Sequence record: PZ445451.1
DNA length: 64,000 nucleotides
Source: a phage
Strand: one strand, 5' to 3'
Both the position numbers and the translations under genes were made by a program. The notes below the pieces were generated by a model. The model was not told where the DNA came from, searched no databases, and worked only from the letters and a program-made list of their open reading frames with translations. Below, piece by piece: positions 32,341 through 44,445 of this stretch (the stretch's first letter is position 1; every line of letters starts with the position of its first letter).

Positions 32341-32363
32341 AAAAGGGGCGAAAGCCCCTTTAT
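32341..32363 (+). terminator. Rho-independent terminator (GAAA loop)
   Basis: aaggggc-gaaa-gcccctt followed by tataaaa. Confidence 0.55.
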
Positions 32364-34343: not shown

Positions 34344-34368
34344 AAGCCCCTTCGGGGGCTTATTGTTT
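34344..34368 (+). terminator. Rho-independent terminator (UUCG loop)
   Basis: agcccc-ttcg-ggggct followed by tattgttt. Confidence 0.55.
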
Positions 34369-34379
34369 AAGGAGATTAA

Positions 34380-37199
34380 ATGTATCCTATTCCTCTATTT
34401 ATGTCAACAACACCAGCTTCAGTAGTAACAGCTACATCTATAACTACTTCCTCTATTGGTATTGCAATAGTTGGTGGTAAAAAACAACTGACATACACAG
34501 TTACACCGGAAGATGGTGCATTATTTGATATAGCTTTTTCATCTTCAGATAATACCAAAATGGTTATAGATAATAGTGGTATGATGGAGTTTGTTGCCGA
34601 AGGTGGTTTTGATGCAATAATGACAGCTAAAAATAATTTAGGTGCTGTCTTAACTGATCAATCTGGTGGTTATGCTTCAGAATTAAGTGTGTACACTGAA
34701 AGTCTATCGGCTATGGATGTAGGCACTACTCAACAGTTAGTTGCTACAATCAGTCCAGAAGGTGCTAAAGACCTTCCAGATATGGTAATTACATACACCA
34801 CAACAGATCCAGAAGTAGCTACTGTAAGCCCTACAGGGTTAATAACTGCTCTTAAAGATGGCGGTTGCCGTATAGGTTGTACTGCAACGTATCAAGGAAC
34901 AGTTGTGGCCTCTGATAGGTCTTATTTAGGTGTTAATGCTATTCCTGTTATTTCTAATGTAACAGCCGTGGCAAACAGTTATGGAGACGTTCGTGTTGCT
35001 TGGGATGTAACTGATCCACTAGACGGTGATACTTATACTGTAGAAGTATTAGATTTAAGTGATAATAGTGTTCAGTGGACTACAACAACCACGAATACTC
35101 ATGCTTACTTTGATATCTCTGACTCTATTCCTCTTTATGGGTTTGCTCCAACATACCTTAAAATTAGCGTTAAGAGCACCAAAGCAGCAGCCGTTATCTT
35201 TAATAACTCAATAGCTACAGATGATTCATTCATTAAAGAAGTTATTGTCTTTGCTGGACAAGATAACGTAAATGCACACTTTACAGAACTATCTGGTGCA
35301 AATAAAGCAGCAATGAGTAGCACAACAGCCCGTAATGCATATGCTGCGCAACGTGGTTTAGCAAATGCTGAAGTTCTTCCGTTAAATACAGCTTCTGGAT
35401 CATCAGCAGCAGATAAATATGCTGACGATAAAGCTGGAACAGGTACACCAGACAATTACTGGTATGATCTGGATAACACAGCAGATGGGCCATGCTTAAC
35501 TAACTTTATCACTAAAGTCACACCTTATGCAAGTAAGGTTAAAGCAATTATTTGGGGACAAGGTGAAAATGATGCTGTATCAGCATCTTCGACTGTTGCA
35601 GGTAGGTACAGTAACACTACACGTTACCATGATGCTACGATAGCTATCTTTGATAAGATGCGTACAATAGTTCCTGCTTCTCAAGCAAAAATTGTTTGGC
35701 AGATCCTAGGACGTTCTTATTTATATGGTGTAGAAGTTAATGGTGTGGATTGGCAGAAGTACAGAAATGTACAAAGAACCATCTCTACAGCACGTGATGA
35801 TGTTATCATTGGTTCTTGGGTAGATGGTGCTGAACGTTACAGTGGCTATGTTTATGAAGAAGGTATTGATGGTCGTATCCATTATGTTTCTTCTGTATAC
35901 CAAACAGCAGCTACAAAACTTGCTAAATCGGCAGCAGACGGTACAGACTTAACATCAACGTCACCTGTTTGGGTTGATATGGCTGTTCCAACTGGAGCAA
36001 CAGCCACTTCCCAATCTAATCAAGATACAATTTTAGCATGGGATGCTCAAGGCTATAGTAAACACTACTTCCGTAATATTAACGTCTTAACCGCATCTGT
36101 ATTAACTGAACAAACGCTTAATACGAACAGTTATACGTTTACCTATGCAGATCAAGTAGAACAATATGGTTTTGCAGCAGGAACTGCTATATTTGATGTT
36201 GCATATTATGACGAAGCAAATGATGTGTTATCTCCTTTAGTACGTTTTAATGTTAATATTACAGCAGGAACCGAAGAAGATAAACCTGTCGTGATGGACT
36301 ATGATTTGACGCAAGAAACTCTCCCATCAGATGTTAAGGTTAATGGTGGGAACTCTTTTGCTCGTGCCTCTGGAGATAAACTTGTAGCCACTAACACCTT
36401 GGTTGCCCCGTTGGAGTATGTTGGTACTACCCCTGTAGGTAGACGTGTAACAGCTAACACAGCTACACAAATTTTTGTCAACAACGCCTTAACAAGTGCA
36501 AGCCCGTGGGTAAAGACCAACTTAACTGTTGCAGCTTCATCTGATAACTCTCCGGCTGGAACTACTGCTAATGTATTCAAATTAACTCCGACTACAACCT
36601 CTGGTAGTCATATCTTAACTGCAACATATACTAACGCGTACAACATATCTGCCGGACGTAACTGGTCTGCCTCTGTTTTCTTGAAAGCGAACGGGATTAC
36701 TAAGGCCAAACTAAGATTAAAAGCAGGAACTGAAGTTAATGAGGGTACTTTTGATTTAGCAGCAGGTACATTCACAGGAAGTGAAGCTAATATTATATCT
36801 ATGGGCAACGGTTGGTATCGTGCTATTCTGCATAAAACAGGGATAGCCAAACAGTCCTCCATAAGTTTTGAAATAATTGCCTTGGATGCAACTGGTGCGG
36901 AGATTTTCGCTGGAAATGGTACTAGTAACCTTGCAGTTTGGTTGCCACAGCTTGAAGGTGCTTCTACAGGAGAAACATCAAAAGCTGGATCGCCTTATGT
37001 CTGCACATATCCTGGAAATTTAGGAGGAGTATCCTTCACTATACCAAGGAACGGACATACTGGTGTGGATGTTTACTATTCCAACGGAGACGTTGTTCGT
37101 GACGTATTCTCTGGTACGGCATCTACTTGGACAATAAACTACTCCAGCTTGTACGATTGGGGATCAGTCTTTATTACAGGTTTGAAATATTACGACTAA
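34380..37199 (+). CDS. Tailspike/tail fibre with two Big_2 Ig-like domains and a SASA-type carbohydrate esterase domain
   Basis: 939 aa; N-terminal Big_2-like repeats (TQQLVATISPEGAKD...ATVSPTGLITALKDG); GQDN(V) and WGQGENDA motifs resemble the GQSN / QGESD motifs of sialate-O-acetylesterase-type domains; C-terminal beta-rich region. Confidence 0.55.
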   Translation: MYPIPLFMSTTPASVVTATSITTSSIGIAIVGGKKQLTYTVTPEDGALFDIAFSSSDNTKMVIDNSGMMEFVAEGGFDAIMTAKNNLGAVLTDQSGGYASELSVYTESLSAMDVGTTQQLVATISPEGAKDLPDMVITYTTTDPEVATVSPTGLITALKDGGCRIGCTATYQGTVVASDRSYLGVNAIPVISNVTAVANSYGDVRVAWDVTDPLDGDTYTVEVLDLSDNSVQWTTTTTNTHAYFDISDSIPLYGFAPTYLKISVKSTKAAAVIFNNSIATDDSFIKEVIVFAGQDNVNAHFTELSGANKAAMSSTTARNAYAAQRGLANAEVLPLNTASGSSAADKYADDKAGTGTPDNYWYDLDNTADGPCLTNFITKVTPYASKVKAIIWGQGENDAVSASSTVAGRYSNTTRYHDATIAIFDKMRTIVPASQAKIVWQILGRSYLYGVEVNGVDWQKYRNVQRTISTARDDVIIGSWVDGAERYSGYVYEEGIDGRIHYVSSVYQTAATKLAKSAADGTDLTSTSPVWVDMAVPTGATATSQSNQDTILAWDAQGYSKHYFRNINVLTASVLTEQTLNTNSYTFTYADQVEQYGFAAGTAIFDVAYYDEANDVLSPLVRFNVNITAGTEEDKPVVMDYDLTQETLPSDVKVNGGNSFARASGDKLVATNTLVAPLEYVGTTPVGRRVTANTATQIFVNNALTSASPWVKTNLTVAASSDNSPAGTTANVFKLTPTTTSGSHILTATYTNAYNISAGRNWSASVFLKANGITKAKLRLKAGTEVNEGTFDLAAGTFTGSEANIISMGNGWYRAILHKTGIAKQSSISFEIIALDATGAEIFAGNGTSNLAVWLPQLEGASTGETSKAGSPYVCTYPGNLGGVSFTIPRNGHTGVDVYYSNGDVVRDVFSGTASTWTINYSSLYDWGSVFITGLKYYD

Positions 37200-37200
37200 T

Positions 37201-37230
37201 AAAAAAGGAGCCATTAGGCTCCTTTTCTTT
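37201..37230. terminator. Bidirectional terminator at the convergence of + and - transcription units
   Basis: Stem ggagcc / ggctcc with loop atta, flanked by aaaaaa on one side and ttttctttt on the other. Confidence 0.65.
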
Positions 37231-37234
37231 TATC

Positions 37235-37666
37235 TTAATCAGTGAAAATTACGCTTACATCTTCTTTAGAAAAGAGTTTATGATCTTCACCTTTTGTCTC
37301 AAGAGTTTCATACAGGTTAAGAAGTTCTGAAACATCTTTCTCTACCAGTTTCTTCAATGTTGCAATTTTCTGTTTGCGATTCTTAATACGTTCAGCTACA
37401 ACCTTACGTTGGTATCCAGCAGTACGATAACCTGAGAAAGTTACACCAGTGAGACTTGCAGTTACAGGATCGTAATGACGTTCAATCTGAAATTTATTAA
37501 AAGGTACAGCGTCATCACGAATAATCTTACCGCCATTACTTACTTGACGAAGACCAGTAACTTGTTCCAGTCGTGCCATAGAAATCTTTGGAGATAGACC
37601 AGAATCCAGGTTCATACCGTTGTTAATCAGTGCTTTCAGGGTGATTTTGCTGTTCAGTGTACTCAT
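37235..37666 (-). CDS. Hypothetical protein
   Basis: 143 aa ORF; GGAGG about 9 nt upstream of the ATG; 5' end overlaps the 3' end of the methyltransferase gene by about 44 nt. Confidence 0.45.
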   Translation of the reverse strand: MSTLNSKITLKALINNGMNLDSGLSPKISMARLEQVTGLRQVSNGGKIIRDDAVPFNKFQIERHYDPVTASLTGVTFSGYRTAGYQRKVVAERIKNRKQKIATLKKLVEKDVSELLNLYETLETKGEDHKLFSKEDVSVIFTD

Positions 37667-38354
37667 TTAGTCGTTCCTCCGCTTGCTTAAAAATATTTAC
37701 ATCGGCTTCACAGCCTAAGTATTCTCTACCTGTTAAAAGTGCCGCAACTTGTGTTGTTGCACTTCCAGAGAAGAAGTCTAAGATTACATCTCCTTCGTTG
37801 GTATGTATATTAATAAGGTCACAAAACAAAGTCAAGTGTTTTTGTGTTGGATGAAAACGATCTGCTCCTTGATAGATAGGATACTCAAACACACCCTTAT
37901 GGTAGGAAGCATTGAAGGTTGGCTTCGAACCTTTAACACAAACAATAGCCATCTCTTTAGCGTTACTAAGATAGTTAACACCGCTGTTGATGGGTACAGG
38001 GTTTGTTTTAATCCATTCAATAGTACGGAACATACGAAAACCAAGCGGTTCAAGGATTTCACGTAGCTCCTGGATCTTCCAGATATCATACCAAACTATG
38101 CAAGTACCACCTTTTCTAAGCACCCTATAGGCTTCTTTGAATACTTCTTTAAAGTAAGGAATATCTACAACATCCCAATCACCAAAGTTGTAAGATACAC
38201 GGAATCTATCTGTATCTTTTCCAGTAGGCTCTCCAGATTGAAAATTTGTGTCACGAGAAATAGCATATGGTGGATCAGTAAGAATCAAATCTACACTATT
38301 GCTTTCGAGGGTTTGCAGGTAGTTTAATGCGGTGTTGTTTACAAATTCGCTCAT
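37623..38354 (-). CDS. DNA methyltransferase (beta-class N6-adenine/N4-cytosine amino-MTase), orphan
   Basis: 243 aa; N-terminal DPPY catalytic motif followed by a C-terminal AdoMet-binding motif (DFFSGSATT) in the beta-class order; no restriction endonuclease gene adjacent. Confidence 0.7.
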   Translation of the reverse strand: MSEFVNNTALNYLQTLESNSVDLILTDPPYAISRDTNFQSGEPTGKDTDRFRVSYNFGDWDVVDIPYFKEVFKEAYRVLRKGGTCIVWYDIWKIQELREILEPLGFRMFRTIEWIKTNPVPINSGVNYLSNAKEMAIVCVKGSKPTFNASYHKGVFEYPIYQGADRFHPTQKHLTLFCDLINIHTNEGDVILDFFSGSATTQVAALLTGREYLGCEADVNIFKQAEERLNEYTEQQNHPESTD

Positions 38355-38371
38355 TATATCTCCTTCAAAGA

Positions 38372-38393
38372 AAAGGAGCCGTTAGGCTCCTTA
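38372..38393 (-). terminator. Hairpin terminator, near-identical copy of the 37201-37230 hairpin
   Basis: Stem ggagcc / ggctcc with loop gtta; a U-rich tract follows on the - strand; lies between the SSB and methyltransferase genes. Confidence 0.5.
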
Positions 38394-38414
38394 TATTTAC
38401 ACAATATTTAATTA

Positions 38415-39362
38415 TTAGAAACAGTGCAGGAAGTTTCGACCATACTGCAAACCAATAGGAGCAAATGGGATATCATCATCGAAATCTTGAACAACAGGTT
38501 CTGGTTCTTTCGGTGCTGGCTCTTTCTTCTCTACTTTTTTAGTTTCTTTCTTAACTTCTTGTACTGGGATAGACATTCCACGGATAGCAGCAGCTACTTT
38601 ATCAGACAAAGCAAGAACTTCACGAGCAGCTTCAATAATCTCTTCTGCCGTTACAGTTTTACCTGTATGATCACGACAAGCGTTAAGAATTGCGTGTCCA
38701 ACTGAAGCACCAAGATCATAGTCAGTTACATCAACGCCACGATCTTTAGCAATTTCAGCTTTCAGAGTAACAGTTGCAGATTGTACCACACCAGCCAAGT
38801 CGAAAGCATCACCTTTCACACCAGCACGTAGAAGCTCCAGAGCGCCGTTTACAGCGTGTCCTGTTTCAATCCCTACGGTATCACGTTTTTTGTAGTTAGG
38901 CTTGCTACCGTCATTATTAGAGGGCTTATTTCCACCTTTTGAAGAGGATTGTGCTTGCTGAACACCTTCTGTTGAAAGAATAGTGATTTTACCTTTAGAG
39001 GAATTATAGTATGTTTTGCCATTCCATTCAGAAGGTTTAACATCCATAGTTAGTTCTACACCTTTTTCGATAGTAACCCATTTATCACCATCTTTAACTT
39101 GCAGGTTTTCATGTTCTGGGTGCAGTTTAACTTCACCTAAGCTAACCCAAACACCTTTATCATCAGCACCAGCACCTTTCTCTTTAATAAGCAGAGATGC
39201 TTTGTGAGTTGATTCAATTTTCTTATCTGGTTGACCTGCAACCTTAATATAAGAGACTTTCATTTCATCAAACTTATCCAGTTTGACATATTCAACGATA
39301 CCTTCAGCCCAGAATGCTTCTTTTTTAGTACGACGGTCGATTTCAGAATTAATTACTGGCAT
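38415..39362 (-). CDS. ssb: Single-stranded DNA-binding protein
   Basis: 315 aa; ends with the acidic amphipathic tail DFDDDIPF characteristic of SSBs; sits in the replication module. Confidence 0.6.
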   Translation of the reverse strand: MPVINSEIDRRTKKEAFWAEGIVEYVKLDKFDEMKVSYIKVAGQPDKKIESTHKASLLIKEKGAGADDKGVWVSLGEVKLHPEHENLQVKDGDKWVTIEKGVELTMDVKPSEWNGKTYYNSSKGKITILSTEGVQQAQSSSKGGNKPSNNDGSKPNYKKRDTVGIETGHAVNGALELLRAGVKGDAFDLAGVVQSATVTLKAEIAKDRGVDVTDYDLGASVGHAILNACRDHTGKTVTAEEIIEAAREVLALSDKVAAAIRGMSIPVQEVKKETKKVEKKEPAPKEPEPVVQDFDDDIPFAPIGLQYGRNFLHCF

Positions 39363-39378
39363 AAATTCTCCTCTATAA

Positions 39379-39777
39379 TTACATTACTTTAACACAAAAC
39401 TCTCGTAAAAGAGTAGCGTCAGTTTCTTCCAACAGGTATTTACCAAGACCAATACCAAATCCTATTTCACCACTTTCAAAATGGAGGATTTGTATCTTTT
39501 CTCCACCAAGGTTAATTACTTTTGCTTTTCCAGGATTATCCAAAACATCTCGTATTGTATCCTGTAGTAACATAAGCTCACGTTTTGTGATAGTGGTTTC
39601 AGATATCTCTTTGTTTTCTACTCTCACTGTTAAACGATTGTATCCACCAAAGAGACATAGTATTTGAATAAAAAAGGTATTATCTTGAGGTTCAACATCT
39701 TTTTTAGTTAGTTCAAGACGATTAGTTTCTCTACTGTAGAACGTCTCGACTAAGATTTTAGAACGATTATCTGTCAT
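39379..39777 (-). CDS. Hypothetical protein
   Basis: 132 aa ORF on the replication-module strand. Confidence 0.4.
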   Translation of the reverse strand: MTDNRSKILVETFYSRETNRLELTKKDVEPQDNTFFIQILCLFGGYNRLTVRVENKEISETTITKRELMLLQDTIRDVLDNPGKAKVINLGGEKIQILHFESGEIGFGIGLGKYLLEETDATLLREFCVKVM

Positions 39778-39820
39778 TCAAGTCCTCATAATAACACATA
39801 ATTGTAAGGTTTGTCAACAC

Positions 39821-40435
39821 TTAAATCTTAAATTCTTCGTTGTTAAGTGAATCCAGTGTACGTACTTCTGGTTCTTTGGGGATGAAAACGTCTTTTACAA
39901 AGCGGAACATAGGGAAACGTTCTGCCATTTTACGGACGTGTGCTTCTTTACCTGTGTAGCGGTGATTAATAGTACAAATATTAGTTTTCAGCGCAAATTC
40001 AAAATCTGGATGATATACATAATTTTGACCATCCCAGTAACACAGGCAAATAGCTACGTCAAAGTTCCATACGATTTCACTGCGTACACCTTCTTCCATG
40101 ATCATAAAGTTAAACTTAAGATCTTTATAGTATGCTTCAAATACCCATTTCAAATGTGGTAGTTCGGCATAAGTGTGTTCTGTTTGCTTAGTAAGTTGTT
40201 TAACATTACGTGCACCAACACCCAACATCAAAAATTTCTCTACTAGTACGAGTGTATTGTGGTTAGGCATACGCAAGTAAATATCAATATCTTGCGCAGG
40301 TTTCTCTAATCGCCAATCACGTACAGCGCCGCCAGCTACAATTGCAAACGGATCTACCAGTTGGCACATACGTAATACTTCTAAAGCTCGTACTTTTTGA
40401 TCTTCAATATTCATATTTTCTCCTATCGTTTCCAC
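39821..40435 (-). CDS. Minimal nucleotidyltransferase related to the CCA-adding enzyme / poly(A) polymerase head domain
   Basis: 204 aa; motif FAIVAGGAVRDW...DIDIYL matches the pol-beta-type NTase signature of CCA-adding enzymes (GGaVRD...DhDh); far shorter than full-length CCA enzymes. Confidence 0.55.
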   Translation of the reverse strand: METIGENMNIEDQKVRALEVLRMCQLVDPFAIVAGGAVRDWRLEKPAQDIDIYLRMPNHNTLVLVEKFLMLGVGARNVKQLTKQTEHTYAELPHLKWVFEAYYKDLKFNFMIMEEGVRSEIVWNFDVAICLCYWDGQNYVYHPDFEFALKTNICTINHRYTGKEAHVRKMAERFPMFRFVKDVFIPKEPEVRTLDSLNNEEFKI

Positions 40436-41010
40436 TCTTTGTGTTGTTCTACATGCTCAAGCATTTCATTATATAGTGCTTTAAGATGTGGAACAACTCT
40501 TTCATCTTCAGTTTCAAAGAATTTTGTAAGCTGCTCTGCTTTAGCTTTCAACCAGCAAAGATGCGCTTCAATTTCAGTATTAAAACGTCCCAGCGTTTTT
40601 ATGCGACTGTCTACTTTTATATTGGCTTTGTATTTATTACGATCTTTTTCGTAACTACATCCCACCATAGTCCCATGAGATCTTTTACTTACTCTATAAG
40701 CTAAGAACTTATTAAGATCTCCTGTTACTAAAAGACAGGTATTGGGAGAGTAAACTCTCCCTCCTATAATATCTTTATCAAGTTCTAAGTTTTCCCAGTC
40801 ATCCCAAGTTTGCAACCAGGAATAGAAATTGGAGAACAACTTCCATTCTTCACAAACTGTCACCCCATTATAACAAGGATCACGTTCTTGTTGACAAGGG
40901 GAGTAACACCTCCCCAACATAGACATCCATTTCATATAAGCAGGGTGCATAGTTCCTCTAGGAGATCTTACAGTAAAATCTCCATCAAAAATACCATGAC
41001 CATATACCAT
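40423..41010 (-). CDS. Putative homing endonuclease with AP2-like DNA-binding domain
   Basis: 195 aa; AP2-like block (KYKANIKVDSRIKTLGRFNTEIEAHLCWLKAKAE); Cys/Trp-rich N-terminal region; free-standing gene directly downstream of the polymerase. Confidence 0.4.
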   Translation of the reverse strand: MVYGHGIFDGDFTVRSPRGTMHPAYMKWMSMLGRCYSPCQQERDPCYNGVTVCEEWKLFSNFYSWLQTWDDWENLELDKDIIGGRVYSPNTCLLVTGDLNKFLAYRVSKRSHGTMVGCSYEKDRNKYKANIKVDSRIKTLGRFNTEIEAHLCWLKAKAEQLTKFFETEDERVVPHLKALYNEMLEHVEQHKEWKR

Positions 41011-41039: not shown

Positions 41040-44000
41040 CTAATGACAACTGGCCCATGAGTTACCAACATCGTACCCAGCAGTGAGAGGTACATTAAGA
41101 TTGTAATACTCACCAGCTTTATTAACAGCGATAGATGCTAATTCTCCAGCACGACTGTAGGCTGTAAACCAACCACCTTTCGGAGATTCATGTACGTTCG
41201 CCCAAATCTTGCCAGTACGTTTCTCTTCCTCTTCTTTCCAGGCATTAACTTTATCCAAACATTCTTTATCAATTTTCTTTTGTTCTTCTGGATCATCAAC
41301 TTGAGTCCAACCTAAAGATTCTTTAGAGAACCATTTAAAATGCACCAGATCACGAGTTACTTCAAGTTGTGCTTCATCGTGATATGCAATCATTTGTTGA
41401 ACGAATGACTTATTTTTCCAGTCATCAACAAAAAAGTCAACAGCTAATCCTTCTTCTTCGATAAGATCGTCGTAGATAACCATTGCTCTTTTTGCACAAA
41501 TAACACCACCACTCTGGAACAGAGAGTTAAGTATTGCGTGTGCAGATCGTGTAGGTACTTTTCTACCATCAATACCGAGAATGTATTTCTTACCTGTTTT
41601 AACCCAAAAGTCATGCAGACGTTCTTTAAGAAGCGCAAGAGGTTTTGCAGCTTCCCAGAAAGCATCGTATACAAGCTGTCCTGTATACATATCACTACCT
41701 ATAGTTTTTGCTACTTTTGCAGCTTGAGCACCATAAGTAATACCATACTTAACAGATTTAGCAGGGCTTCGTTCAAACTTACGACCAATAGTGTCAGAAA
41801 TACGTCGAGCCATCATTGTATGAACATCATTAGGTTTTTCCAATAATAGAGCATTACAATATTCGTGTGGTTCCTGCTCGTACCGCCAACAATTCCCTGT
41901 AATCGTGATGCAGTCTTTCTGACGCATAACCCATGTACCGAGTTCTGTTTGTGGACACCAAACATCTTCTACACCCCATTCTTCAATAGTCAGACTTTGA
42001 ACAGGGATGTGAGAGCGGTTAGCCAACGTTGCCACTTTTACTTTCTGGTCTTTCGTATTGAAGGCTACAGAAATATTACCCCCATGAACCAGGTATGAGG
42101 CAGTTAAGGCTGCTTCAAAAAGTTCTCCTGGGTTCTGCGCCCAGCGCCAAACAGGTTTTTGTTTATGTTTGTGCCAGTAACCATCCGCAATCAAAAAACC
42201 TTCCAAGAAAGCCACACGCTCGGCATGAGACATATTAACTACACGTTCTACCCACGGAACATCCCATTTACCTTGTTGAACAGAAGTTAAACTATTTACT
42301 TGATCTTGTTCCATGTTAAATGGAGCATTACAAATAATGTTATCTCCTGTGCAAAGCTCGGCAGTTGTTCTGACTTTAGGCACATAAGTATTCCCTGTAC
42401 TACGAGTATTAACATACCAACGGTGATCTGCTGTTGCACGATAAGTATGGGATTTTCCTTTAATCTCAAACGTCTTACTATTTTTATAGAAGACCTTACC
42501 TTTTACTTTAGTCCATTCTTTAAGTCCTGTTTCTGGGTTATATCCTAAGATTTCATCCCCTTCTTGTAGATCGTGATAACCAACCCAACCTTTACGGGTT
42601 AGTGCTTGTGCATCCATAGGTACACAGTAGTGTGATTCTATTTTTGCCTCAAGAGAATCAAAGTCATAACCAATTTGGAAGTATTTTGGAACTTCTACAC
42701 CAAATAAGTTACGCATTTCATATCCGTACAGAGATGTTACACGTGGGATATTTGCTACTAACCTATGTTTCATACGAGATGTAGCTGCATCACACGTTGC
42801 AGCAGGAGTTGGTATACGACCATCAGCCCTTACTGCTGCCAGATAACCTTTATCGTAATCCTCTTCATCTTCTTCCCAATCAGCACCACCACCTAGAATA
42901 GAGTTCCTACGGTGTTTATACGTAAGATACTGCACAATCTGCGTAGCATAAGGAAACTTTTCACCCAGTGCTTCCAAGTTAGGACAAATATCTTTCTCTT
43001 GCCCTTTTGTAAAGGAAGGGTTCGTAAGCACTTTAACACCACGACCTTTAGCTTTAGCAATACGATCTCTTAGTTTCCATTCCAAAGTTTCTGGTGTGCA
43101 CTCCAGATGATCACATCTGTCCTGGCAGAAGTTAGATGCTAACGTTTGATCAACATAGTCACGAATAGCTTTCTCCATTTGTGCTTCATCTTTCTTAATC
43201 TTAGTGCCAGATTTAAGAGTGATATCTTTATCTTTGTATTCAGATGGACTCCAACCTAAACCAACTAACCAGTTTTTAATATGTGTAGTGTCGTCTAAAG
43301 TAGCAGGTACTGTAGGATCACAAATAGGTTCTTCTGCTGGAATAGGGAGTTTAAACTCTTTACCTAAAGCAAATAACCACCAACCATCTTCTTTTTGTAC
43401 AAGTTCACCAGAATGTTTCTCTGCAAACTTTATCATGTTACTTGAAGGTTCACCATTCTTTTTAAACTGTAGTTTAGGTGGAATGAATGATTTCAAATAA
43501 CCTTTGGTAGCAGGTTTAGGAGGTAGCACAGGTTCTGCCTCTAAACGACATGCTTCCATTCGAGCATCCAGATCACGAATATTATCTTCTGCTTGTTTCA
43601 TATTGAAAGCAAAGCCACGGTGCTCTTGACGTGTAATAATATCAGCTACACGTTGTTCTAAGTTAAATGGTTCAGACCACTTATTATAATCACCCCACTC
43701 TTCCATCAAATAACGGAACACTGCGGTGTTAGCTTTGTTATCGTAAATACAGTAATACAGCATATCTGCTGCAAATGTTTTAAATCTTTCAGTTTCAGGG
43801 ATGTTTTTTCTAAAATCAATTTTAACATCCCCTCCAGCTTTCTTAGATAACTCTGCCAGACTATGACCACCGAAGCGATCAGGGTTTAGTGTCTTACTTA
43901 AGATCATAGTATCACAAATTTCAATGTTACTATTACCCCAAGTATTGTACTTAATACTGTAGTTGAGTTTAAAAAATAATTTAATTGCCAGTAAGTCGAA

Positions 44001-44354
44001 GTTAATGATGTTGTGTCCAACTACTTTGGTAATTTTATAGTTTGAATTACCTTTAAATTTACCTGTTCCATTTACAAAATCAGGAAAATCTTTAAGAGGG
44101 AAATGGGTATATTCTAAATGCTCATATTCCTCCAATCGGTATTCATACTTTCCGTCAGTCTCAATATACGGACGACCATCGAAAAGATATTTATCACCAT
44201 CATGGAAAGCAATAATCTCTCCAGTATCATGACTTTCGCACACAATACAGTGCATTGCAAAACTATCTTTTAAACGATATGGACTTGCCAAGTAATCTAC
44301 ACTTTCGTCATTAAGCAAGTTGTTACTTTCAATGTCGAAAGTAAAAGCTCCCAT
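41040..44354 (-). CDS. DNA polymerase, family A (3'-5' exonuclease + polymerase), intein-containing
   Basis: Exo I FDIES and Exo II HNIINFD motifs; motif A DFDSLEAKIESHY interrupted right after HY; motif B-like KSVKYGITYG; motif C-like YHDE; strong AAGGAGGG RBS. Confidence 0.8.
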   Translation of the reverse strand: MGAFTFDIESNNLLNDESVDYLASPYRLKDSFAMHCIVCESHDTGEIIAFHDGDKYLFDGRPYIETDGKYEYRLEEYEHLEYTHFPLKDFPDFVNGTGKFKGNSNYKITKVVGHNIINFDLLAIKLFFKLNYSIKYNTWGNSNIEICDTMILSKTLNPDRFGGHSLAELSKKAGGDVKIDFRKNIPETERFKTFAADMLYYCIYDNKANTAVFRYLMEEWGDYNKWSEPFNLEQRVADIITRQEHRGFAFNMKQAEDNIRDLDARMEACRLEAEPVLPPKPATKGYLKSFIPPKLQFKKNGEPSSNMIKFAEKHSGELVQKEDGWWLFALGKEFKLPIPAEEPICDPTVPATLDDTTHIKNWLVGLGWSPSEYKDKDITLKSGTKIKKDEAQMEKAIRDYVDQTLASNFCQDRCDHLECTPETLEWKLRDRIAKAKGRGVKVLTNPSFTKGQEKDICPNLEALGEKFPYATQIVQYLTYKHRRNSILGGGADWEEDEEDYDKGYLAAVRADGRIPTPAATCDAATSRMKHRLVANIPRVTSLYGYEMRNLFGVEVPKYFQIGYDFDSLEAKIESHYCVPMDAQALTRKGWVGYHDLQEGDEILGYNPETGLKEWTKVKGKVFYKNSKTFEIKGKSHTYRATADHRWYVNTRSTGNTYVPKVRTTAELCTGDNIICNAPFNMEQDQVNSLTSVQQGKWDVPWVERVVNMSHAERVAFLEGFLIADGYWHKHKQKPVWRWAQNPGELFEAALTASYLVHGGNISVAFNTKDQKVKVATLANRSHIPVQSLTIEEWGVEDVWCPQTELGTWVMRQKDCITITGNCWRYEQEPHEYCNALLLEKPNDVHTMMARRISDTIGRKFERSPAKSVKYGITYGAQAAKVAKTIGSDMYTGQLVYDAFWEAAKPLALLKERLHDFWVKTGKKYILGIDGRKVPTRSAHAILNSLFQSGGVICAKRAMVIYDDLIEEEGLAVDFFVDDWKNKSFVQQMIAYHDEAQLEVTRDLVHFKWFSKESLGWTQVDDPEEQKKIDKECLDKVNAWKEEEEKRTGKIWANVHESPKGGWFTAYSRAGELASIAVNKAGEYYNLNVPLTAGYDVGNSWASCH
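41892..42626 (-). mobile_element. Intein (about 245 aa) with LAGLIDADG homing-endonuclease motif in the polymerase motif A region
   Basis: Starts with Cys after ...IESHY (CVPMDAQALTRKGW); block B TADHRWYV; LAGLIDADG-like VAFLEGFLIADGYW (about 42180-42209); ends ...ITITGN followed by Cys; extein resumes CWRYEQEPHEY...DVHT, aligning with family A sequence after motif A. Confidence 0.7.
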
Positions 44355-44421: not shown

Positions 44422-44445
44422 AAAGGGGCTTTCGCCCCTTCTTGT
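44422..44445 (-). terminator. Stem-loop downstream of the 44445 gene (putative terminator or processing site)
   Basis: aggggc / gcccct 7 bp stem; no clear U tract on the - strand. Confidence 0.3.

What the first reader, a model, noticed from the sequence alone, without database searches (positions are those of the whole stretch)
37201..38393. Near-identical hairpins flank a two-gene cassette containing an orphan DNA methyltransferase
The hairpin aaaaggagccATTAggctcctttt at the convergence point of the late and replication modules recurs as aaaaggagccGTTAggctcctt about 1.15 kb away, bracketing the methyltransferase and a 143-aa ORF. Repeated terminator-like hairpins at cassette borders can mark recombination junctions through which accessory genes are acquired.
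Basis: seen in the sequence. Interest (0 to 1): 0.4.

Follow-up and report, generated by a model that had tools for sequence, protein, structure and literature searches.

The report
Paired terminators around a variable gene slot
Two near-identical hairpins in a phi92-like coliphage are ordinary transcription terminators that bound a gene slot whose content varies between related phages, and their resemblance is not a scar left by acquiring the methyltransferase genes.

Summary
The window is Escherichia phage PaulScherrer (Justusliebigvirus, phi92-like). AAAAGGAGCC-ATTA-GGCTCCTT (H1, 37203-37224) and AAAAGGAGCC-GTTA-GGCTCCTT (H2, 38371-38392) are the only two copies in the 150-kb genome. They bracket a beta-class N6-adenine methyltransferase and a 143-aa ORF (phi92 gp154).

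Both look like Rho-independent terminators. H1 is bidirectional, where the tail-fibre operon meets the leftward replication operon. H2 has a U-tract on the minus strand only and sits between the SSB-like gene and the methyltransferase RBS, so it probably acts as an attenuator.

- The slot is variable: empty, an HNH endonuclease, or gp154-like alone in relatives. H1 is also a tail-fibre module breakpoint.
- Three related metagenomic lineages carry the same two genes between non-identical hairpins.
- Another lineage has two GGAGCC hairpins around gp154-like alone, or around nothing.
- This hairpin type occurs in at least 349 phage records.
- This genome reuses other terminator sequences three to four times.

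So there is always a hairpin at each position, but which sequence fills it changes. H1/H2 identity is not a cassette-insertion signature. A PeSL-like recombination role is not excluded. Interest is low.

The parts
34380..37199 (+). Last gene of the late (tail) operon: a 939-aa lateral tail fibre / tail protein with a Big_2 domain. Its stop codon TAA lies one base before the A-run of H1.
   Evidence: ORF list; Pfam Big_2; annotated as lateral tail fiber protein in MZ501100.1.
36291..37199 (+). Exchangeable C-terminal module of the tail-fibre gene. Its right-hand boundary is H1.
   Evidence: Window 36291-37233 (this module plus H1) is 96.7% identical to Phapecoctavirus ZCKP1, versus 73% for the SSB-like gene. 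The module is absent from phi92, PD114 and UAB_1, where homology resumes at about 37186.
37201..37233 (.). H1: a bidirectional intrinsic-terminator hairpin. Layout is A6, GGAGCC, ATTA, GGCTCC, T4CT4AT. It fills almost the whole 35-nt gap between the two converging stop codons.
   Evidence: best terminator-like hit on the + strand; RNA fold -15.4 (+) and -19.4 (-) kcal/mol; annotated as a terminator on both strands in phage Paula.
37235..37666 (-). 143-aa ORF, the homologue of phi92 gp154 (phrog_20244), function unknown. It has a strong GGAGG RBS inside the methyltransferase 3' end and overlaps that gene by 44 nt.
   Evidence: Homologues at 56-66% identity are always next to the methyltransferase. 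A 38%-identical homologue occurs without a methyltransferase in L143, L145 and L138.
37623..38354 (-). Orphan beta-class N6-adenine (N6/N4) DNA methyltransferase, 243 aa.
   Evidence: PF01555 E=3.8e-30; best PDB matches are the DpnA-like enzyme 5hek (1.4e-28) and CcrM; PADLOC MTase_II. No nuclease partner: the neighbours are gp154 and the SSB-like gene.
38360..38365 (-). AAGGAG ribosome-binding site of the methyltransferase. It starts 5 nt after the U-tract of H2, leaving no room for a promoter.
   Evidence: Sequence read; phi92 annotation of an AGGAG RBS for gp155; no promoter-like hit between H2 and the start codon.
38371..38392 (-). H2: a leftward-only intrinsic terminator or attenuator. 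On the - strand it reads AAGGAGCC-UAAC-GGCUCC-UUUUCUUUG; on the + strand the tail is the poor UUAUAUUUA.
   Evidence: -14.0 kcal/mol. Annotated as a - strand terminator in Paula. Identical in all nine Justusliebigvirus loci read and in L147.
38394..38411 (-). Spacer between the SSB-like stop codon and H2. It looks like a relic of the 3' end of an HNH endonuclease gene.
   Evidence: 15/18 identity with the last 18 nt of the HNH gene that precedes the identical H2 in L147, at the same position. Only 1 of 2000 shuffles scored as well.
38415..39362 (-). 315-aa SSB-like gene, the phi92 gp156 homologue (phrog_4477). It is the last conserved gene of the leftward replication operon and H2 is its terminator.
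   Evidence: annotated as SSB in several records; homologues in 343 phage records.

Best explanation
H1 and H2 are Rho-independent transcription terminators, not cassette-insertion scars.

H1 has an A-tract on one side and a T-tract on the other. It stops both the rightward late (tail-fibre) operon and the leftward replication operon where they converge.

H2 has a U-tract on the minus strand only. It ends transcription of the SSB-like gene, which is presumably abundant. The methyltransferase RBS begins 5 nt after that U-tract and no promoter intervenes. I therefore infer that the overlapping methyltransferase-gp154 pair is expressed at a low level by read-through of H2, and that those transcripts end at H1.

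[quoted passage not shown] It holds, in different lineages:
- nothing;
- an HNH endonuclease;
- gp154-like alone with its own promoter;
- methyltransferase plus gp154.

A hairpin is always present at each position, but its sequence turns over among a small repertoire (GGAGCC, GGGGC and GGGAACCTC types).

The 21/22 identity of H1 and H2 in Justusliebigvirus is best read as two members of one popular phage terminator family. They are kept alike by stem constraint, and possibly by occasional conversion between the copies. It is not best read as a duplication made when the cassette arrived.

Shown: the hairpin anatomy, the comparative states of the slot, and the breakpoints. Inferred: termination itself, read-through expression, and the direction of the evolutionary events.
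For: Anatomy:
- Stable GC-rich stems, with U-tracts on both strands for H1 and on the minus strand only for H2.
- Both hairpins lie in short intergenic gaps just after stop codons.
- Both are annotated as terminators in phage Paula.

Positional conservation with sequence turnover:
- L146: GGGGC-ttcg upstream of the pair and GGGAGCCTC-ttgc downstream.
- L148: GGGGCT upstream and GGGAGCC-aat downstream.
- L147: the exact H2 upstream and GGGAACCTC-gaaa downstream.
- All of these fold at -13 to -20 kcal/mol and have T-tracts.
- In every methyltransferase-bearing lineage the RBS follows the T-tract directly.

Other states of the slot:
- Lineage X has two GGAGCC hairpins around promoter + gp154-like (L143, L145), or around a 17-nt spacer (L139).
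- phAPEC8 keeps the same flanks, TAATAAAAAAGG...CCTTTTCTTTTAT, but has a different complementary stem.

The hairpin is generic:
- 349 phage records and 424 places.
- At least 120 IMG/VR stretches with 33 loop types.
- Pairs of GGAGCC hairpins flank other modules: ssb-recT-exo in W011D and a lysis cassette in NBD2.

Within this genome:
- Other terminator sequences are reused three to four times.
- The methyltransferase (GC 0.387) and gp154 (GC 0.377) match the window's composition of 0.38.
Against: - There are no transcript data, so termination and read-through are untested.
- H1 and H2 share 3 of 4 loop bases in direct orientation. In an IMG/VR sample the ATTA and GTTA loop types each make up only about 5% of GGAGCC hairpins. 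This suggests common descent or conversion rather than mere reuse.
- Hairpins within one genome resemble each other more than the hairpins at the same position in different lineages do. Loops are taac/taat in Justusliebigvirus and gaaa/tttc in lineage X. This pattern also fits recombination between the copies.
- All 56 phage records with the cassette belong to one genus and match the H2 45-mer at 97.8% or better over at least 80% of its length (both hairpins read directly in nine loci). The association is therefore fixed there.
Confidence: 0.7

Rival explanations
1. PeSL-like recombination modules. The two direct-repeat hairpins are short homologies through which the cassette can be excised, leaving one hairpin and forming a mini-circle, and then captured by any phage that carries the same terminator. 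This is what Arbiol et al. 2010 showed for promoter/stem-loop cassettes in T4-like phages.
For: - The repeats are direct.
- The sister genus has a single hairpin at the empty site, with identical flanks.
- H1 is a breakpoint for tail-fibre module exchange between genera.
- The same 30-38-nt hairpin with its flanks is shared with unrelated virulent phages: T1-like phages between tail fibre and ssb, and the jumbo phage EJP2. It is absent from 5,426 E. coli genomes.
- In lineage X the upstream hairpin is followed by a TTGACG-17-TAATAT promoter, which makes it a true terminator+promoter composite.
- Hairpins are more alike within a genome than across lineages.
- The PeSL precedent is described in PMC2839356 and PMC4122927.
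Against: - The shared stretch is only 22 bp.
- There are only two copies in the genome, not a dispersed family.
- The same two genes sit between non-identical hairpins in L146, L147 and L148.
- The empty site in L139 keeps both hairpins, so that loss did not go through hairpin-hairpin recombination.
- The single hairpin of phAPEC8 has a different stem.
- No cassette-free Justusliebigvirus appears among the phage records searched: 56 records carry gp154 and 56 match the H2 45-mer, but genus members as such were not counted.
Confidence: 0.15
2. Pure convergence. H1 and H2 arose independently and look alike only because A-tract, GGAGCC stem, tetraloop and T-tract is a favoured terminator design in phages of Gammaproteobacteria.
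For: - This hairpin type occurs at hundreds of unrelated sites with many loops.
- The genome shows several other recurring stems.
- Random placement among terminator sites would make the two copies neighbours with p of about 0.08.
Against: - The loops agree at 3 of 4 positions in the same orientation, and both loop types are uncommon.
- The GGAGCC stem is found at both positions in lineage X as well, and at one or the other position in L147, L148 and Phapecoctavirus. That pattern suggests inheritance rather than repeated invention.
Confidence: 0.12
3. The repeats are a target-site duplication or an attC-like site made by a transposase or integrase that inserted the two-gene cassette into a single ancestral hairpin.
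For: Direct repeats flank a discrete 1.15-kb segment. The sister genus has a single hairpin at this site.
Against: - No transposase or integrase lies in or beside the cassette.
- A 22-bp duplication is atypical (my knowledge).
- gp154-like occurs between two hairpins without the methyltransferase, and the pair occurs without repeats.
- A 22-nt spacer carrying an HNH relic lies outside H2 and is also specific to this arrangement.
Confidence: 0.03

Closest known systems
Rho-independent (intrinsic) terminators, including bidirectional ones between convergent operons
   Same: A GC-rich stem of 6 core pairs extended by A:U pairs, a 4-nt loop and an adjacent U-tract, placed right after stop codons. 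H1 carries A- and T-tracts on opposite sides, as bidirectional terminators do. Other annotators already call both hairpins terminators.
   Different: Nothing structural differs. Termination activity was not measured. H2 is followed immediately by an RBS, so it must be leaky if the downstream genes are expressed.
PeSLs, the promoter-early stem-loop cassettes of T4-like phages (Arbiol et al. 2010, PMC2839356; Comeau et al. 2014, PMC4122927)
   Same: Stem-loop terminators sit at the borders of non-essential genes in a variable region. Indels and replacements between relatives end at them. In lineage X the upstream hairpin is followed by a sigma70-like promoter.
   Different: In the window there is no promoter component at H1 or H2. 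There are only two copies in the genome, compared with about 50 PeSLs per T4-like genome. Mini-circles were not tested. The same genes occur in relatives between dissimilar hairpins.
Phage 'morons': extra genes inserted between conserved genes, usually with their own promoter and terminator (concept of Hendrix and colleagues, from my own knowledge)
   Same: An accessory methyltransferase (+gp154) lies between two genes that are adjacent in a sister genus. It is bounded by terminators.
   Different: No promoter of its own was found. Base composition does not differ from the genome. gp154 appears to be an old resident rather than part of one imported unit.
Phage-encoded orphan DNA methyltransferases (Murphy et al. 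2013, as cited in PMC12210895)
   Same: A PF01555 beta-class N6A/N4C enzyme with no cognate nuclease. It is one of several methyltransferases in Justusliebigvirus genomes.
   Different: It is always translationally overlapped with a conserved small ORF of unknown function (gp154). Its target sequence is unknown.

Membership tests
Rho-independent terminator | Stable GC-rich stem-loop in the transcript | tested here: met
   H1 folds at -15.4 (+) and -19.4 (-) kcal/mol and H2 at -14.0 (-). Z-scores range from -2.7 to -6.1 against shuffles.
Rho-independent terminator | U-rich tract immediately 3' of the stem | tested here: met
   H1: UUUUCUUUU on the + strand and UUUUUUAUU on the - strand. H2: UUUUCUUUG on the - strand only; the + strand has UUAUAUUUA.
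Rho-independent terminator | Located at the 3' end of a transcription unit | tested here: met
   H1 lies 1-2 nt from both converging stop codons. H2 lies 22 nt after the SSB-like stop codon.
Rho-independent terminator | Measured termination of RNA polymerase | not testable with these tools
   No transcript data are available. Term-seq or reporter assays are needed.
PeSL (promoter-early stem-loop) mobile regulatory cassette | Stem-loop that acts as a terminator or attenuator | tested here: met
   Met by structure only.
PeSL (promoter-early stem-loop) mobile regulatory cassette | Sigma70-like early promoter within the same motif | tested here: not met
   Only 5 nt separate the H2 U-tract from the methyltransferase RBS, and there is no promoter-like hit there or at H1. 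In lineage X (L143, L145) a TTGACG-17-TAATAT promoter does follow the upstream hairpin.
PeSL (promoter-early stem-loop) mobile regulatory cassette | Many dispersed copies concentrated in hyperplastic regions | tested here: not met
   There are exactly two copies in 150,425 nt. Other terminator families recur three to four times.
PeSL (promoter-early stem-loop) mobile regulatory cassette | Indels or replacements between relatives that end at the motif | tested here: inconclusive
   Breakpoints at H1 are clear and the slot content varies. But L146, L147 and L148 carry the same genes between unlike hairpins, and L139 lost its cargo while keeping both hairpins.
PeSL (promoter-early stem-loop) mobile regulatory cassette | Circular recombination products (mini-circles) | not testable with these tools
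   This needs outward-facing PCR on infected-cell or virion DNA.
Moron | Gene(s) present between two genes that are adjacent in related phages | tested here: met
   In phAPEC8 the order is tail protein, hairpin, SSB-like gene, with nothing between.
Moron | Own promoter and terminator, and atypical base composition | tested here: not met
   Terminators are present, but no promoter was found. GC is 0.387 and 0.377 against 0.38 for the window, and GC3 lies within 1 sd of the mean for long ORFs in the window.
Orphan DNA methyltransferase (beta-class N6A/N4C, PF01555) | N6_N4_Mtase domain with DPPY and FxGxG motifs | tested here: met
   PF01555 full length, E=3.8e-30. The translation contains DPPY and DFFSGSATT. 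PDB matches are a DpnA-like enzyme and CcrM.
Orphan DNA methyltransferase (beta-class N6A/N4C, PF01555) | No cognate restriction endonuclease | tested here: met
   The neighbours are the SSB-like gene and gp154. gp154 has no nuclease or other hit in Pfam, NCBIfam, PADLOC or PDB. It also occurs without any methyltransferase in lineage X, which a restriction enzyme could not tolerate (inference).
Transposon target-site duplication / integron attC | Adjacent transposase or integrase, and repeats that travel with the cassette | tested here: not met
   No such gene is present. The repeats do not accompany the cassette in L146, L147 or L148.

The most novel reading that the evidence does not exclude
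The GGAGCC terminator could be a shared 'docking' sequence among unrelated virulent enterobacterial phages: phi92-like phages, T1-like phages, jumbo Asteriusvirus phages and T4-like Acinetobacter phages. Short-homology recombination at it, as with PeSLs, would move adjacent modules (tail-fibre tips, HNH genes, the methyltransferase-gp154 pair) between genomes. It would also keep the two copies in one genome alike by conversion. On this reading H1 and H2 are both terminators and the recombination borders of a portable slot.
Probability: 0.12. Interest if true: 0.55.

Novelty: new member of a known kind. Interest (0 to 1): 0.2.

Why it matters
There is little surprise here. Terminator hairpins bounding accessory genes at the junction of convergent operons are standard phage architecture.

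- five or six alternative contents;
- a terminator position on each side that is always occupied, while the hairpin sequence changes;
- a tail-fibre tip module whose exchange between genera ends exactly at H1.

For phage engineering, the site between H2 and H1 looks like a natural, insulated place to insert cargo. H1 also marks the natural right-hand boundary for swapping receptor-binding modules.

If the recombination reading were shown to be correct, it would extend the PeSL concept beyond T4-like phages.

Tried and rejected
- **Function of gp154.** Pfam, NCBIfam, PADLOC and a PDB profile search gave nothing significant. AlphaFold2 on a 5-sequence alignment gave mean pLDDT 54.7 and pTM 0.27, too poor to search folds with, so no fold search was run. 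The search of 5.8 billion proteins found only four clusters.
- **Promoter scan.** It found 46 sites against 43.4 expected from shuffles, so it carries no information beyond the absence of space for a promoter between H2 and the RBS.
- **Host origin of the hairpin.** The H1 45-mer has no match in 5,426 complete E. coli genomes.
- **SSB-like C-terminal extension as an insertion scar.** I first suspected the 15-residue extension after DDDIPF was one. I rejected this because rV5, in another subfamily, has the same extension.
- **Foreign composition of the methyltransferase.** Not seen.
- **Target-site duplication or attC reading.** Rejected.
- **Limits of the evidence.** The metagenomic lineages are each known from one to three contigs. 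The direction of gains and losses is inferred by parsimony only.
Full report
**Identity of the window.** Window 36000-40000 is 100% identical to Escherichia phage PaulScherrer (MZ501100.1; Justusliebigvirus, Stephanstirmvirinae; phi92-like). Window position equals record position minus 675.

**The observation.**
- AAAAGGAGCCNTTAGGCTCCTT occurs twice, at 37203-37224 (H1, loop ATTA) and 38371-38392 (H2, loop GTTA). Both are in the same orientation, and none is expected in shuffles.
- Similarity ends at the hairpin edges.
- I assembled the rest of the genome from the public record. No further copy appears even with four mismatches.
  - tail-fibre gene 34380-37199 (+), then H1;
  - the 143-aa ORF 37235-37666 (-);
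  - the methyltransferase 37623-38354 (-), then H2;
  - the 315-aa SSB-like gene 38415-39362 (-).
- The methyltransferase is a full-length PF01555 enzyme. Its closest solved relatives are a DpnA-like N6-adenine methylase and CcrM.
- The 143-aa ORF is phi92 gp154 (phrog_20244, unknown function). It starts at a GGAGG RBS inside the methyltransferase gene and overlaps it by 44 nt.

**What the hairpins look like.**
- H1 fills the 35-nt gap between the two converging stop codons. It has six A on one side and TTTTCTTTT on the other. It folds at -15.4 kcal/mol on the + strand and -19.4 on the - strand.
- H2 has a U-tract only when read on the minus strand (UUUUCUUUG) and folds at -14.0 kcal/mol.
- H2 lies 22 nt after the SSB-like stop codon. 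The methyltransferase AAGGAG RBS begins 5 nt after its U-tract, so no promoter fits between them.
- Phage Paula's annotators marked both hairpins as terminators.
- I infer that H1 is a bidirectional terminator and that H2 is a leaky terminator placing methyltransferase-gp154 under read-through control. This is structural inference; no transcript data were available.

**Is the repetition special within this genome?**
- A simple scan of the whole genome finds about 25 terminator-like hairpin sites.
- Other stem-loops also recur exactly: AAAGGGGCTTTCGCCCCTTT four times, AAACCCGCTTCGGCGGGTTT three times, and a GGGCGC stem three times.
- Reuse of terminator sequences is therefore a habit of this phage.
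- With 25 sites, two copies of a rare type would be neighbours by chance with probability about 0.08 (my arithmetic).

**Is the hairpin special among phages?**
- The H1 45-mer matches 349 phage records at 424 places. These span Escherichia, Klebsiella, Acinetobacter, Salmonella, Erwinia, Aeromonas and other phages, next to spanins, dUTPase, phosphatases, tail sheath genes and more.
Among those hits there were 33 loop types, led by GAAA/TTTC at 30%; ATTA/TAAT and GTTA/TAAC were about 5% each.
- Some matches extend to the flanks:
  - T1-like phages carry TAATAAAAAAGGAGCC-tttc-GGCTCCTTTTCTTTTATC between their tail-fibre and ssb genes.
  - The jumbo phage EJP2 has the exact H1 sequence between two unrelated genes.
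- In nine of the 120 IMG/VR stretches, a second GGAGCC hairpin lies 50 nt to 11 kb from the first. In W011D the pair brackets ssb-recT-exo, and in NBD2 a lysis cassette.
- The H1 45-mer is absent from 5,426 complete E. coli genomes.
- H2 together with its flanks is found only in the 56 Justusliebigvirus records.

**Comparative states of the slot.**
- *Within Justusliebigvirus.* The methyltransferase and gp154, at 95% amino-acid identity or better, are confined to 56 Justusliebigvirus records; the next methyltransferase relative in the phage collection is below 35% identical. All nine loci of the genus that I read have both hairpins. H2 is invariant, whereas the H1 loop is ATTA, AATA or TATT.
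- *Sister genus Phapecoctavirus.*
  - phAPEC8 has tail protein, one hairpin and the SSB-like gene, with no cargo. The flanks are the same but the complementary stem differs (GGGAACC...GGTTCCC).
  - ZCKP1, Mt1B1_P17 and nepoznato have an HNH endonuclease in the slot. It is preceded by a GGGGC hairpin and followed by an H1-type hairpin.
- *Metagenomic 'lineage X'* (SSB-like protein 62% identical to the window's).
  - L143 and L145: the SSB-like gene is followed by GGGAGCC-gaaa-GGCTCC, a TTGACG-17-TAATAT promoter and a 139-aa gp154 homologue (38% identity over 97% of its length). Then comes AGGAGCC-tttc-GGCTCC and the converging tail gene. There is no methyltransferase.
  - L138 has an added HNH gene.
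  - L139 has both hairpins 17 nt apart with nothing between them.
- *Three further lineages*, found through the few gp154 homologues in the 5.8-billion-protein collection. All carry the same overlapping methyltransferase+gp154 pair in the same synteny (methyltransferase 78-86% identical), but between unlike hairpins:

| Lineage | Hairpin before the methyltransferase | Hairpin after gp154 |
|---|---|---|
| L146 | GGGGC-ttcg | GGGAGCCTC-ttgc-GAGGTTCCC |
| L148/149/150 | GGGGCT-gcttgt | GGGAGCC-aat |
| L147 | exact H2, including loop, U-tract and RBS | GGGAACCTC-gaaa-GAGGCTCCC |

- All of these hairpins fold stably and carry T-tracts.

**Reading of the comparison.**
- A terminator hairpin is always present after the SSB-like gene and at the convergence point, but its sequence is interchangeable. 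That pattern fits selection for function, not a specific recombination site.
- The 'cassette' is not one unit. gp154 occurs without the methyltransferase, and two GGAGCC hairpins occur around other contents or none.
- The methyltransferase and gp154 have the genome's base composition.

- The slot is a hotspot of gain and loss.
- H1 is a sharp mosaic boundary. Window 36291-37233 (the tail-fibre tip plus H1) is 96.7% identical to ZCKP1, while the neighbouring SSB-like gene is 73% identical.
- phi92, PD114 and UAB_1 lack 36237/36264-37185, with homology resuming at H1.
- The two hairpins in one genome resemble each other more than the hairpins at the same position across lineages. Loops are taac/taat in Justusliebigvirus; in lineage X they are gaaa/tttc, i.e. 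the same hairpin flipped. This could reflect conversion between the copies.
- These features resemble the PeSL cassettes of T4-like phages, which are terminator+promoter motifs that mediate modular shuffling and form mini-circles (PMC2839356, PMC4122927).
- The window's hairpins fail two PeSL criteria: they have no promoter component, and they are not a dispersed multi-copy family.
- I keep the PeSL-like reading as a minority rival (0.15).

**A possible origin of H2.** The 18 nt just upstream of H2 (38394-38411) match the last 18 nt of the HNH gene that precedes the identical H2 in L147, at 15/18 positions. Only 1 of 2000 shuffles scored as well. This suggests that Justusliebigvirus descends from an L147-like arrangement (SSB-like gene, HNH, H2, methyltransferase, gp154) that later lost the HNH gene.

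**Verdict.** The hairpins are ordinary intrinsic terminators framing a variable accessory-gene slot. Their near-identity is a lineage-specific feature of a widely used terminator type and not evidence of how the methyltransferase was acquired. This is a new member of a known kind, of low interest.

Noticed in passing
window 38415-38462 (- strand); L002, L009, L010: The SSB-like protein carries the classic SSB C-terminal tip DDDIPF, followed by 15 more residues (APIGLQYGRNFLHCF). The same extension occurs in ZCKP1 and Mt1B1_P17, and as APVGLQYGKSRIHAL in rV5. In contrast, phAPEC8, nepoznato, L146, L148 and lineage X end exactly at DD(D/E/N)IPF. A buried DDDIPF tip would be unusual for partner binding.
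   Followed up: partly
window 38394-38411: The spacer between the SSB-like stop codon and H2 matches the last 18 nt of an HNH endonuclease gene at 15/18 positions. In contig L147 that gene sits directly upstream of an identical H2. Only 1 of 2000 shuffles scored as well, so this is probably a relic of a deleted HNH gene.
   Followed up: partly
window 36291-37233: The tail-fibre C-terminal module plus H1 is 96.7% identical to Klebsiella phage ZCKP1 of another genus. It is absent from phi92, PD114 and UAB_1. This looks like recent exchange of a receptor-binding tip between genera, bounded on the right by H1.
   Followed up: yes
window 32342-32361, 44423-44440, 34344-34361; whole-genome coordinates 117584, 130673, 79876, 105557, 109931, 87785, 91722, 92877 (record position minus 675): Other terminator-like hairpins recur with identical stem and loop: AAAGGGGC-TTTC-GCCCCTTT four times, AAACCCGC-TTCG-GCGGGTTT three times, and a GGGCGC stem three times clustered in the early-gene region. 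I did not examine whether they bound variable genes.
   Followed up: no
L003 2500-2540 (Salmonella phage phSE-5); many Drexlerviridae; L008 2500-2535 (jumbo phage EJP2): Unrelated phages share the hairpin together with its flanks, TAATAAAAAAGGAGCC....GGCTCCTTTT(CTTTTAT). In T1-like phages it also sits between a tail-fibre gene and an ssb gene ending in DDDIPF. In EJP2 the sequence equals H1 exactly, including the loop. The hairpin is absent from E. coli genomes.
   Followed up: partly
window 41040-44354 (- strand): The DNA polymerase ORF is 1104 aa here but about 859 aa (2580 nt) in JohannJBalmer and VivaForever. UAB_1 and PD114 have the long form. The internal segment starting CVPMDAQALT... 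looks like an intein, but I did not verify this.
   Followed up: no
window 40423-41010 (- strand): A 195-aa ORF between the nucleotidyltransferase and the DNA polymerase is present in the window, JohannJBalmer and PD114. VivaForever has only a 96-nt ORF there, and UAB_1 has no annotated gene at that position. This is another indel in the same operon, and its function was not examined.
   Followed up: no
L139 4937-5010 (= L099 3526-3596): In the empty-slot relative, the two hairpins are reverse complements of each other, 17 nt apart. Read as a single strand, the whole about 75-nt region folds into one long hairpin at -42.5 kcal/mol. The remnant GTATAG resembles the last codon plus stop (GTATAA) of the missing gp154-like gene.
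   Followed up: partly
L146, L147, L148 versus window 37623-38354: The methyltransferase is more conserved across lineages (78-86% amino-acid identity) than the adjacent SSB-like protein (54-74%) or gp154 (56-66%). This could mean stronger constraint on the enzyme or more recent lateral movement of its gene.
   Followed up: no
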